From assembly GCF_002854065.1 (NCBI RefSeq), contig NZ_CP024147.1: DNA of 64,000 nucleotides; one strand, given 5' to 3'. The position numbers were made by a program. This document shows, piece by piece, positions 19,101 through 22,100 of this stretch. Within the stretch, counting starts at the first letter, position 1. Each line of letters starts with the position of its first letter. The stretch comes from Escherichia coli (GTDB taxonomy: Bacteria > Pseudomonadota > Gammaproteobacteria > Enterobacterales > Enterobacteriaceae).

Positions 19101-22100
19101 GGCTACACCGACGCCGGTCTGGTGTTTTTAGGCGCAGGCGTTTTCTCATGGCTAAGCCTTGAACCGGTGATCTTGCAGCGTCTGCGCAGTTCGGGAGAAT
19201 TACCCACGGCACTGCGGACATCTCTCGGCATTCAACTCGCTCCTGCGCTGGTGGCCTGTAGTGCCTGGCTGAGCGTCAACGGCGGCGAGGGTGACACGCT
19301 GGCGAAAATGCTTTTCGGTTATGGACTGCTGCAACTGCTGTTTATGCTACGTCTGATGCCATGGTATCTCTCCCAGCCATTTAATGCTTCATTCTGGAGT
19401 TTCTCGTTCGGCGTATCTGCACTGGCAACCACCGGTTTGCATCTGGGGAGTGGCAGCGATAATGGATTTTTCCATACGCTGGCGGTGCCGCTGTTTATCT
19501 TTACCAATTTTATTATTGCAATACTGCTCATCCGTACTTTTGCGCTTCTGATGCAGGGAAAATTGTTAGTCAGAACCGAGCGCGCCGTTTTAATGAAAGC
19601 AGAGGACAAAGAATGATTATTCGTGACGAAAACTATTTTACTGATAAATATGAATTAACCCGCACACACTCTGAAGTACTGGAAGCGGTGAAAGTGGTTA
19701 AACCGGGTAAAACGCTGGATCTGGGCTGTGGCAATGGTCGTAACAGTCTTTACCTGGCAGCCAATGGTTATGATGTTGACGCATGGGATAAAAATGCCAT
19801 GAGTATCGCCAACGTCGAGCGCATTAAATCTATTGAAAATCTGGATAATTTACACACTCGGGTCGTTGATCTGAATAACCTCACATTTGCTGGACAGTAC
19901 GATTTTATTCTTTCGACTGTGGTGCTGATGTTCCTTGAGGCTAAAACCATCCCAGGGCTGATTGCTAATATGCAACGTTGCACTAAACCTGGCGGTTACA
20001 ACCTGATTGTGGCGGCGATGGATACCGCTGATTATCCATGTACCGTCGGCTTCCCGTTTGCCTTCAAAGAGGGAGAATTACGTCGATATTACGAAGGCTG
20101 GGAGAGGGTGAAATACAATGAAGACGTCGGCGAGCTGCACCGCACCGACGCCAACGGTAATCGTATTAAACTGCGTTTCGCCACGATGCTGGCACGTAAA
20201 AAATGACCCGGTAAGAACAAAGCGCGTGAAAATTCCCCACGCTGAGATGGTTTACTGTCCTTCTTTTCGGTAAGCATATTTTTTATCGAAGGGATGTGAA
20301 ATTAATCACAGTAGTCGAAGTTTTTTAGCAGCTTAACTTACTGAAATTTAACTACTGATGATTGACTTAGCCCCTTTTGCGGCATTGACTATGTCGTCTG
20401 AAAAGGGGCTAAAAAAATTTATTTTCACCAACACTTTTTTTGCCACAACACGAAGCGGCGCTTTTTGCTATAACTTAAAAAGTAATATAATCATCTCAGG
20501 AAACTATTCATGCGTACCACATCATTTGCGAAAGTTGCAGCTTTATGCGGCTTGTTGGCTCTGTCTGGTTGTGCCTCTAAAATCACCCAGCCAGATAAAT
20601 ATTCTGGTTTTTTAAACAATTACTCTGATTTAAAAGAAACAACCTCGGCTACAGGTAAACCGGTTTTACGTTGGGTAGACCCGAGTTTTGATCAAAGCAA
20701 ATATGACAGCATCGTCTGGAACCCAATCACTTATTATCCGGTACCGAAACCTTCGACCCAGGTAGGGCAGAAAGTTCTGGGTAAAATTTTGAACTATACC
20801 AACACCGAAATGAAAGAAGCGATAGCGCAGCGTAAACCACTGGTTACCACCGCGGGGCCGCGTAGTCTGATTTTCCGTGGGGCCATTACCGGTGTAGATA
20901 CCAGTAAAGAAGGGCTGCAATTCTATGAAGTGGTTCCTGTTGCATTAGTGGTTGCGGGGACGCAAATGGCTACAGGCCACCGTACCATGGATACACGCTT
21001 GTATTTTGAAGGTGAGCTGATTGATGCAGCGACTAATAAACCGGTTATCAAAGTCGTTCGTCAGGGCGAAGGTAAAGACCTGAATAACGAAAGTACGCCA
21101 ATGGCTTTCGAAAATATTAAACAAGTTATTGATGACATGGCGACCGATGCCACCATGTTTGACGTTAACAAAAAGTAGTTCCAGACGCGCCATCGTTAGA
21201 TGGCGCTTTTTATTATCGGTTTCTGTCAGCGATTAAATTCAACACCACGTAACAAACGCCTCCGGCAATTAATCCCCAAAACGCAGAACCAATCCCGACC
21301 AGCGTCAATCCACTTGCCGTTACCAGAAATGCCACCACCGCCGCGTCGCGCTCACGCTCACGCTCATTATGCAGCGCCTGATACAAACTGCCGCCAATGG
21401 TACTCAACAGCGCCAGACCTGCCAGCATCTGGATCCAACTTACGGGCAGGGCAGCCATCATCCCGGTAATGGCACTACCAAACAGACCTGCGAGCAAATA
21501 GAAAATGCCTGCAACGGCAGCTGCCAGCCAACGTTGGTCTTTATCCGGATGCGCTTCCGGGCTTTGGCAAATAGCCGCGGTGATTGCCGCAATACCGACG
21601 GAATAAACGCCGAAAGGGGAAAAAACCAGTGCCAGCAATCCAGTAAATACAATTAATGGCGAAACAGGAGCCGAATATCCGGCTGCTTTCATTGCTGCGA
21701 TACCCGGTGCGTTTTGCGATGCCATCGTCACCAGAAAAAGGGGGAGTGCAACGCTCAGGCTGTGAGCAAACGAAAAATCAGGGGTAATATAAGTGGGGAG
21801 AACGGGTTTAAAGACAACATCAGTTGTGACAACGTCACCTTGCGCGATAACGATCACGATCCCAATAATCATCGCGGCAATTACCGCATAGCGCGGCGCA
21901 ACGGCCTTGGTTGCCAGCCATACCAGCAACATACTTCCACACAACGTAAATTGACCGTCCAGACTGGCAAACGCCTGTAAACCAAAGCGTAATAAAATCC
22001 CGGCAAGCATTGCCGCCGCAAGCGAGTGCGGAATAATGCGCATCAGACGAGCAAAGAGTCCCGTTATGCCGCAGAGGACTATTAACGCGTTGGTGACAAT

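What the first reader, a model, noticed from the sequence alone, without database searches (positions are those of the whole stretch)
21179..21215. No IS609 between ydcL and ydcO
Seen in sequence: ydcL and ydcO are convergent and separated only by a 35-bp spacer containing a hairpin terminator. From my recollection K-12 carries an IS609-type transposase gene (insQ/ydcM) at this position. If so, this is the empty ancestral site, useful for delimiting the IS target.
Basis: partly seen in the sequence, partly recalled or inferred. Interest (0 to 1): 0.2.

Follow-up and report, generated by a model that had tools for sequence, protein, structure and literature searches.

The report
Unoccupied IS609 site between ydcL and ydcO
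This short gap between two E. coli genes is the intact version of the spot where strain K-12 and about 60% of sequenced E. coli carry a 1.7-kb jumping gene (IS609); it is a common, already documented difference between strains.

Summary
ydcL (20510-21178, +) and ydcO (21213-22391, -) converge on a 34-nt spacer. The spacer holds an 8-bp GC-rich hairpin (21187-21206) followed by T5, a conserved intrinsic terminator.

K-12 MG1655 is identical to the window for 100 nt on each side. It has exactly its annotated 1,748-bp IS609 (yncK, a dead tnpA, plus insQ/tnpB) between window bases 21213|21214. There is no target duplication. The insertion lies 3' of TTAT (TTTAT), and the element ends in TCAA. It splits the ydcO stop codon, so K-12 YdcO gains one Tyr and takes a TGA from the IS end.

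Among 5,426 complete E. coli genomes, about 2,043 have the empty junction, about 3,264 have IS609 there, and about 95 have IS200C in the same spacer.

The empty state is ancestral for the species: three non-coli Escherichia lineages and B2-type strains are empty, and all sampled IS609 copies at this site trace to one insertion. For this strain's own lineage I cannot prove the site was never occupied, because IS200/IS605 excision leaves no scar. The window does fall in a well-supported all-empty haplotype clade with O157:H7.

This is ordinary and already known.

The parts
20510..21178 (+). ydcL CDS (DUF3313 lipoprotein), TAG stop at 21176-21178
   Evidence: ORF list; Pfam DUF3313 E=2.8e-62; RefSeq annotation of identical or similar loci
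21179..21212 (.). 34-nt convergent intergenic spacer between the ydcL and ydcO stop codons
   Evidence: Sequence and ORF coordinates
21187..21211 (+). Intrinsic terminator of ydcL: 8-bp stem and 4-nt loop (21187-21206) plus a T5 tract (21207-21211)
   Evidence: Terminator scan; fold -16.7 kcal/mol, z -3.3; conserved with a compensatory change in relatives
21209..21213 (+). IS609 target motif TTTAT (TTAT invariant at 21210-21213). TnpA inserts 3' of this motif, and it is the predicted TAM for InsQ/TnpB
   Evidence: K-12 junction; 10 locus copies with identical junctions; 5 independent IS609 sites with TTTAT x4 and CTTAT x1
21213..21214 (+). Exact IS609 insertion point (between these two bases). 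Empty here; filled by 1,748 bp in K-12
   Evidence: Megablast breaks at query 704|705 and 100|101; base-by-base comparison
21214..21233 (+). Sequence that abuts the IS609 right end in the filled allele. It is the predicted guide portion of the element's omega RNA, so together with the TAM it is the predicted InsQ cleavage target (the 'donor joint')
   Evidence: Identical to the K-12 right-end flank; unique in the window. The mechanism is taken from PMC8612924 and PMC10055086 and was not tested for IS609
21213..21215 (-). ydcO TAA stop codon, split TA|A by the insertion in K-12. K-12 YdcO ends ...NRY* using a TGA from the IS end
21213..22391 (-). ydcO CDS (BenE-family transporter, 392 aa), with an extra in-frame GCTCAC unit at 21347-21364
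   Evidence: ORF list; Pfam BenE E=7.7e-161; repeat comparison
21208..21212 (+). Interval in the T-tract where IS200C (709 bp) is inserted in some other E. coli strains. It is empty here
   Evidence: L002 and L084

Best explanation
The window carries the unoccupied allele of the ydcL-ydcO convergent spacer. The spacer consists of the ydcL intrinsic terminator and its T-rich tail. That tail supplies a TTAT (TTTAT) on the + strand, which by GC skew is the lagging-strand template.

In an ancestor of many E. coli lineages, an IS609 element of the IS200/IS605 family inserted as single-stranded DNA immediately 3' of that TTAT, between 21213 and 21214. This family uses a Y1 HUH TnpA and 'peel and paste' transposition. 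The insertion made no target duplication and cut the ydcO stop codon. That allele is the one in K-12.

The window's allele most likely descends from the never-occupied ancestral state.

Shown here: the exact insertion point, the motif, the absence of a duplication, the population frequencies, the empty outgroups, and the single origin of the locus copies.

Inferred only: that this lineage was never occupied, and that InsQ with its omega RNA from the filled allele would cleave this empty site.
For: - K-12 equals the window plus the 1,748-bp annotated IS609, with 100 nt identical on each side and unique placement.
- 2,043 of 5,416 genomes have the uninterrupted junction. The rest break exactly at 21213|21214, and 3,264 carry the IS609 right end joined to ydcO.
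- Ten sampled copies at this site have identical junctions. They share substitutions, including a tnpA stop-loss in nine of the ten, relative to an intact IS609 elsewhere, which indicates one insertion event.
- Three non-coli Escherichia lineages (L005-L007) have the same short spacer, empty. Two of them lack TTAT (GGAT, TGAT). None of 80 Enterobacteriaceae loci has an InsQ homologue.
- In trees of the flanks, the outgroups, B2-type and other deep lineages are all empty.
- Within +-1 kb the window groups with O157:H7, O145 and GDSC2227PM. All are empty and bootstrap support is 96.5%.
- No genome among 5,426 joins IS609 to the window's left-flank haplotype. The best match is 99.3%, i.e. 6 differences in the 964-nt flank part in that record (ET350), against 3 for empty O157.
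- Family features of the element: Y1_Tnp TnpA; OrfB_IS605 plus a zinc-ribbon TnpB with the RuvC triad D183/E267/D363; subterminal hairpins; right end TCAA.
- The + strand GC skew is +0.037.
Against: - IS200/IS605 excision regenerates the original sequence exactly (PMC10055086). A once-occupied site would therefore look identical.
- IS609 with an intact tnpA exists elsewhere in E. coli genomes, for example O157:H7, so excision in trans is conceivable.
- In the +-1 kb tree the IS609-bearing haplotypes are not monophyletic (11% bootstrap). The window's empty clade may be nested among them.
- The window's right flank is closest to an IS609-bearing O121 strain (99.6%).
- A non-coli Escherichia lineage (L004) has an IS609-like remnant at the same position. 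Occupation of this site may therefore be older or more recurrent than one event.
Confidence: 0.75

Rival explanations
1. The site is a secondary 'donor joint'. The lineage once carried IS609 here, and a TnpA supplied in trans by another IS609 copy excised it precisely, restoring the original sequence.
For: - Excision in this family is scarless (PMC10055086).
- Intact IS609 tnpA exists in E. coli (L104).
- IS609-like DNA is present in 5,015 of 5,426 genomes, median two places per genome.
- The window's empty clade is adjacent to, and possibly nested within, the IS609-bearing haplotypes.
- The right flank is most similar to that of an IS609-bearing O121 strain.
Against: - The near-junction clade with O157, O145 and GDSC2227PM is uniformly empty and well supported (96.5%), so any excision would have to be old.
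- No IS609-bearing genome has the window's left-flank haplotype.
- tnpA at this locus is dead in every sampled copy.
- The K-12 copy never moved in mutation-accumulation lines (PMC5009759).
- An intact InsQ with its omega RNA is expected to counter-select excised sites (PMC10055086).
Confidence: 0.13
2. The empty allele was re-acquired. An IS609-bearing ancestor replaced the locus by homologous recombination with DNA from an empty-allele donor.
For: Short recombination tracts around the junction are evident in the opposite direction: Combat11I9 and ET350 carry IS609 with IS609-linked SNPs on an otherwise window-like background. The window's flanks are mosaic, with the left closest to O157-type empty alleles and the right closest to O121.
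Against: Nothing directly indicates that the recipient was occupied. The mosaicism is explained equally well by ordinary recombination among empty alleles. The (GCTCAC)3 allele shared with O121 and ET350 also occurs on other empty alleles.
Confidence: 0.1
3. The absence of IS609 is an assembly artefact, with a repeat collapsed or skipped.
For: None found.
Against: The same 24 kb is 100% identical in two independent complete genomes, CUWW06 and 100416. The same junction occurs in about 2,043 complete genomes.
Confidence: 0.01

Closest known systems
IS609 of E. coli K-12 MG1655 (insQ b1432 / yncK b4578; NC_000913.3 1503161-1504908)
   Same: The window is the exact flanking sequence of this element with the element removed. 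The target TTAT, the insertion point and the right-end flank are all identical.
   Different: The element is absent here. ydcO keeps its own TAA stop, so YdcO ends ...NR instead of ...NRY.
IS608 of Helicobacter pylori, the IS200/IS605 paradigm: inserts 3' of TTAC, right end TCAA, no target duplication (my own knowledge; mechanism summarised in PMC10055086)
   Same: Insertion is 3' of a tetranucleotide with no duplication. There are subterminal imperfect hairpins at both ends, and the right end terminates in TCAA.
   Different: The target is TTAT (usually TTTAT) rather than TTAC. In IS609, tnpA is divergent from tnpB.
Donor joints of ISGst2 and ISDra2, cleaved by TnpB-omega RNA (PMC10055086, PMC8612924)
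   Same: The geometry is the same: the TAM sits directly next to the sequence that follows the right end in the filled allele. ISGst2 TnpB2 also uses the TAM TTTAT. InsQ keeps the RuvC triad and the zinc ribbon.
   Different: No activity data exist for IS609 InsQ. Only sub-threshold Rfam matches (RAGATH-18, HgcC, sot0042) mark the putative omega RNA.
Rho-independent terminators at convergent gene pairs
   Same: A GC-rich 8-bp stem, a tetraloop and a T5 tract immediately after ydcL.
   Different: There is no comparable U-tract on the ydcO-sense strand, so it is probably unidirectional. Termination was not measured.

Membership tests
Empty target site of an IS200/IS605-family element (IS609) | The filled and empty alleles differ only by the element, with no target-site duplication | tested here: met
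   100 nt are identical on each side. The insert is exactly 1,748 bp with unique placement. Ten locus copies have identical junctions.
Empty target site of an IS200/IS605-family element (IS609) | Insertion immediately 3' of a conserved tetra- or pentanucleotide at the left end | tested here: met
   TTAT lies 5' of the left end at 5 of 5 independent IS609 sites, and TTTAT at 4 of 5.
Empty target site of an IS200/IS605-family element (IS609) | The element has subterminal imperfect hairpins at both ends and no terminal inverted repeats | tested here: met
   Left end CCCCATCC-ttca-GGGCGGGG and right end CCACGTCC-ttca-GGGCGTGG, followed by AGGATGTCAA.
Empty target site of an IS200/IS605-family element (IS609) | The element encodes a Y1 (HUH) TnpA transposase | tested here: met
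   An intact 143-aa TnpA in L104 matches Pfam Y1_Tnp at E=1.8e-41. At the ydcL-ydcO locus the gene is a pseudogene in all 10 copies.
Empty target site of an IS200/IS605-family element (IS609) | The active (top) strand lies on the lagging-strand template | tested here: met
   The + strand GC skew is +0.037 across the window, and TTAT and the tnpB sense strand are on +. The link between skew and replication direction is an inference.
TnpB-omega RNA donor-joint target | TnpB has an intact RuvC triad and zinc ribbon | tested here: met
   D183, E267 and D363 align to D191, E278 and D361 of ISDra2 TnpB (8bf8), and CxxC...CxxC is present. Pfam OrfB_IS605, Cas12f1-like_TNB and HTH also match.
TnpB-omega RNA donor-joint target | An omega RNA is encoded at the tnpB 3' end and right end | tested here: inconclusive
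   Only sub-threshold Rfam matches were found in L001 6793-6919: RAGATH-18 at 25 bits, HgcC at 22 bits and sot0042 at 15 bits.
TnpB-omega RNA donor-joint target | RNA-guided cleavage of the TAM plus the flank in the empty allele | not testable with these tools
   The sequence TTTAT+TATCGGTTTCTGTCAGCGAT is present once, at 21209-21233. Activity needs an interference assay.
Intrinsic (rho-independent) terminator | A GC-rich stem-loop followed by a T-tract, directly downstream of a gene | tested here: met
   The stem begins 9 nt after the ydcL stop codon.
Intrinsic (rho-independent) terminator | The structure is conserved among relatives | tested here: met
   The hairpin is kept in Escherichia, Salmonella and Citrobacter with loop variation, and with a compensatory pair in E. 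albertii.
Intrinsic (rho-independent) terminator | Transcription stops there | not testable with these tools
   Needs 3'-end mapping.

The most novel reading that the evidence does not exclude
The tail of the ydcL terminator may be a recurrent landing pad for Y1-transposase elements. Three kinds have hit within about 5 nt of each other: IS609 in about 60% of E. coli, an IS609-like 46-nt remnant in a non-coli Escherichia lineage, and IS200C in about 95 genomes.

The transposase-dead IS609 copy may stay at high frequency because its intact insQ, which is under purifying selection, cuts the empty allele together with the omega RNA. That target is the window's 21209-21233. When the two alleles meet after DNA transfer, the cut would drive short-tract conversion of empty to filled, as the Combat11I9 and ET350 mosaics might reflect.
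Probability: 0.12. Interest if true: 0.45.

Novelty: already known. Interest (0 to 1): 0.1.

Why it matters
The empty site fixes the boundaries of the K-12 IS609 to the base and shows its target (TTAT, usually TTTAT) and the lack of a target duplication. It also gives the natural TAM-plus-protospacer that the K-12 InsQ/TnpB would be expected to recognise. This helps annotation, strain typing and the design of an InsQ activity assay. It does not change current understanding: the element's coordinates are already annotated in K-12, and the empty allele is present in about 38% of complete E. coli genomes.

Tried and rejected
- **Flank tree, 7 kb.** It paired the window with IS609-bearing Combat11I9, which suggested recent loss. 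The SNP matrix and a +-1 kb tree showed Combat11I9 is a short-tract recombinant, so I dropped that reading.
- **The extra GCTCAC unit in ydcO.** The window shares it with IS609-bearing O121 and ET350, and I considered it a marker of secondary loss. I rejected it because other empty alleles (CU42ET-1, OkiPb01695, A37, Q5, GF130) also span the full 461 nt, so they carry it too.
- **Chimeric queries.** I joined the window's flank haplotypes to the IS609 ends to look for an occupied close relative. None was found on the left (99.3% best). The right gave 99.6%, which is suggestive but not diagnostic.
- **Rfam.** Nothing passed threshold in the spacer or for an omega RNA.
- **Literature.** 49 papers in the searchable library mention IS609; the 20 listed were resistance-genomics, H. 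pylori or K-12 IS-inventory papers, and I opened only one. I saw no description of the IS609 target among them.
- **Not possible with these tools.** I could not check whether the source genome (CUWW06) carries IS609 elsewhere, because search results cannot be filtered by accession.

Full report
**What is in the window.** The region is the E. coli tehA-tehB-ydcL / ydcO / sutR-rlhA neighbourhood. ydcL is 20510-21178 on the + strand and ydcO is 21213-22391 on the - strand. The two stop codons are 34 nt apart (21179-21212).

The spacer contains GCGCCATC-GTTA-GATGGCGC (21187-21206) followed by T5. The terminator scan detects it. It folds at -16.7 kcal/mol, z = -3.3, and none of 200 shuffles folds as well. 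The hairpin is conserved in other Escherichia, Salmonella and Citrobacter, with a compensatory pair change in E. albertii. Rfam finds nothing credible in the spacer. The 24 kb around it is 100% identical to the complete genomes of strains CUWW06 and 100416.

**Comparison with K-12.** The MG1655 record annotates 'insertion sequence:IS609' at 1503161-1504908, between ydcL and ydcO. It holds the tnpA pseudogene yncK on one strand and insQ on the other; insQ is annotated as a 'putative RNA-guided DNA endonuclease'.

Read base by base, K-12 is ...GATGGCGCTTTTTAT | CCGGTGCGCC ... GGATGTCAA | TATCGGTTTCTG... The window is ...GATGGCGCTTTTTAT | TATCGGTTTCTG.... The 100 nt on each side are identical and the insert is exactly the annotated 1,748 bp. 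The first and last bases of the insert differ from the adjoining window bases, so the insertion point 21213|21214 is unambiguous. There is no target duplication.

The insertion falls inside the ydcO stop codon (TA|A on the - strand). K-12 YdcO therefore reads one more codon (Tyr) and stops at a TGA supplied by the TCAA end of the element.

**Population frequency.** A 200-nt query centred on the junction is uninterrupted in 2,043 of 5,416 E. coli complete genomes. In the others it breaks exactly at 21213|21214. A query made of the IS609 right end plus the window's right flank is covered by 3,264 genomes. About 95 genomes have a smaller insert, and in the two examined (L002, L084) it is IS200C. 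The empty allele is therefore the minority allele, but a very common one.

**The element and its target.** IS609 has the hallmarks of the IS200/IS605 family:
- Subterminal imperfect hairpins at both ends.
- A right end that terminates in TCAA.
- A Y1_Tnp TnpA, intact in a copy in O157:H7 (L104).
- A 402-aa TnpB (InsQ) with OrfB_IS605, a zinc ribbon and an HTH domain.
- The RuvC triad D183/E267/D363, aligned to D191/E278/D361 of ISDra2 TnpB. The assignment of those catalytic residues is from my own knowledge.

Five independent IS609 insertion sites are preceded by TTTAT (four times) or CTTAT (once). They are ydcL|ydcO, a TetR gene, yedK, a DUF3251 gene and gltX|yfeD. TTAT is therefore the invariant target. 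In the window this motif is 21210-21213 (TTTAT at 21209-21213), formed by the terminator's T-tract plus AT.

The + strand has positive GC skew (+0.037). The strand carrying TTAT is therefore the lagging-strand template, which this family prefers (PMC6006769 abstract, and my own knowledge). In IS605-family elements, TnpB uses an RNA whose guide is the sequence just beyond the right end, and it cuts the 'donor joint' next to the same motif (PMC8612924; PMC10055086). By that logic window 21209-21233 is the predicted InsQ substrate, and this sequence is unique in the window. That step is inference. Only sub-threshold Rfam matches mark a possible omega RNA, and no activity data for IS609 were found.

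**Is the empty state ancestral?**

For the species, yes.
- A scan of one genome per species with YdcL gave 80 loci, and none has an InsQ homologue.
- Three non-coli Escherichia lineages (L005-L007) have the same short spacer, empty. Two of them do not even have TTAT (GGAT, TGAT).
- In flank trees rooted on these, the deep E. coli lineages sampled (Nissle-type, FY10, SW070912 and others) are all empty.
- The ten sampled IS609 copies at this site have identical junctions. All ten share three substitutions, and nine of the ten also share a tnpA stop-loss (M37H keeps the intact base but carries a nearby 1-nt deletion), relative to the intact O157 copy. This indicates one insertion.
- Their tnpA genes were then destroyed at least three separate times: L96*, Y76*, and a frameshift.
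- The insQ copies have diverged to pS of about 0.03-0.045, so the insertion is old.
- The K-12 copy did not transpose in mutation-accumulation lines (PMC5009759).

For the window's own lineage the answer is 'probably'.
- A 7-kb flank tree paired the window with IS609-bearing Combat11I9. The SNP pattern shows that Combat11I9, and likewise ET350, carry IS609 together with IS609-linked alleles only close to the junction, on a window-like background. They look like short-tract recombinants.
- Within +-1 kb the window forms an all-empty clade with O157:H7, O145 and GDSC2227PM (96.5% bootstrap).
- No genome joins IS609 to the window's left-flank haplotype. The best match is 99.3%, and that record, ET350, has 6 differences in the 964-nt flank part against 3 for empty O157.
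- Against certainty, the IS609-bearing haplotypes are not monophyletic in that tree (11%), so the empty clade could be nested among them.
- The window's right flank is closest to an IS609-bearing O121 strain.
- IS609 copies with an intact tnpA exist in E. coli.
- Excision in this family leaves no scar (PMC10055086).

I therefore put about 0.75 on 'never occupied', about 0.13 on old scarless excision and about 0.10 on recombinational replacement. An assembly artefact is excluded for practical purposes.

**Verdict.** The observation and the interpretation both hold. The site delimits IS609 to the base: the insertion is at 21213|21214, the target is TTAT or TTTAT, and there is no duplication. The element's coordinates are already annotated exactly this way in K-12, and thousands of genomes carry the empty allele, so this is known biology of low interest. 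The only mildly unusual points were noticed in passing: the repeated use of this terminator tail by three IS200/IS605-type elements, and the retention of an intact insQ under purifying selection beside a repeatedly inactivated tnpA.

Noticed in passing
window 21208-21212 (empty here); L002 2204-2912, L084 about 3795-4505: A different family member, IS200C (709 bp), is inserted in the same 34-nt spacer, inside the T-tract and 2-5 nt left of the IS609 point. Two genomes were examined. By the difference, about 95 genomes have it.
   Followed up: partly
L004 4706-4751 (Escherichia sp. MOD1-EC7003): A non-coli Escherichia lineage, with flanks 93-96% identical to the window, has a 46-nt hybrid of an IS609-like left end and right end at the very same TTTTTAT| position (CCAGTGCGCCTTATATCCCCGTCCTTCAGTGCGTGGAGGATGCCAA). 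Most of ydcO and the 5' part of sutR are deleted after it. This is either a decayed old insertion or an independent hit at the same site.
   Followed up: partly
L001 5162-6909 and the homologous copies in L089-L094, L101-L103: At this locus tnpA is broken in all 10 sampled copies by at least three independent lesions. insQ is a full 402-aa ORF in 9 of 10, with pN/pS of about 0.26, and it keeps the RuvC triad. This suggests insQ is still under selection without its transposase.
   Followed up: partly
L001 6906-6911; L105 2340-2345; L107 2344-2349: The right end ...GTCAA, read on the opposite strand, gives TGA. At three independent IS609 sites (ydcO, yedK, yfeD) the element sits in the last codons of a convergent host gene and supplies that gene's stop codon.
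   Followed up: partly
L107 555-600 (gltX terminator) and window 21187-21213: Two of five independent IS609 insertion sites lie directly after an intrinsic terminator, whose T-tract provides the TTTAT motif.
   Followed up: no
L009 4708-6670 and most of L009-L083; L008: Outside Escherichia, most Enterobacteriaceae have about 2 kb between ydcL and ydcO, holding a ~300-aa membrane-protein ORF (EamA-like by eye, not checked against Pfam) and an apparent AraC-type regulator. The tight convergent arrangement is seen in Escherichia and a few others. E. albertii lacks ydcO and sutR altogether.
   Followed up: no
window 21347-21364: ydcO here has three GCTCAC units (an extra Glu-Arg) where most E. coli have two. 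The three-unit allele occurs on both empty and IS609-bearing haplotypes.
   Followed up: yes
L003 6200-6992 (strain CFIAFB20190167): The IS609 is truncated within insQ and fused to the 3' part of rlhA. This is a deletion that starts inside the element and removes ydcO and sutR.
   Followed up: no
L094 (Combat11I9) and L102 (ET350), corresponding to window about 20250-21500: These IS609-bearing genomes have window-like flanks farther out but IS609-linked alleles close to the junction, as if the element had been imported on a tract of about 1-3 kb by homologous recombination.
   Followed up: partly
L103 127-1340 (O121 strain GTVSS-020): An IS3-family element interrupts ydcL itself, just upstream of the IS609.
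   Followed up: no
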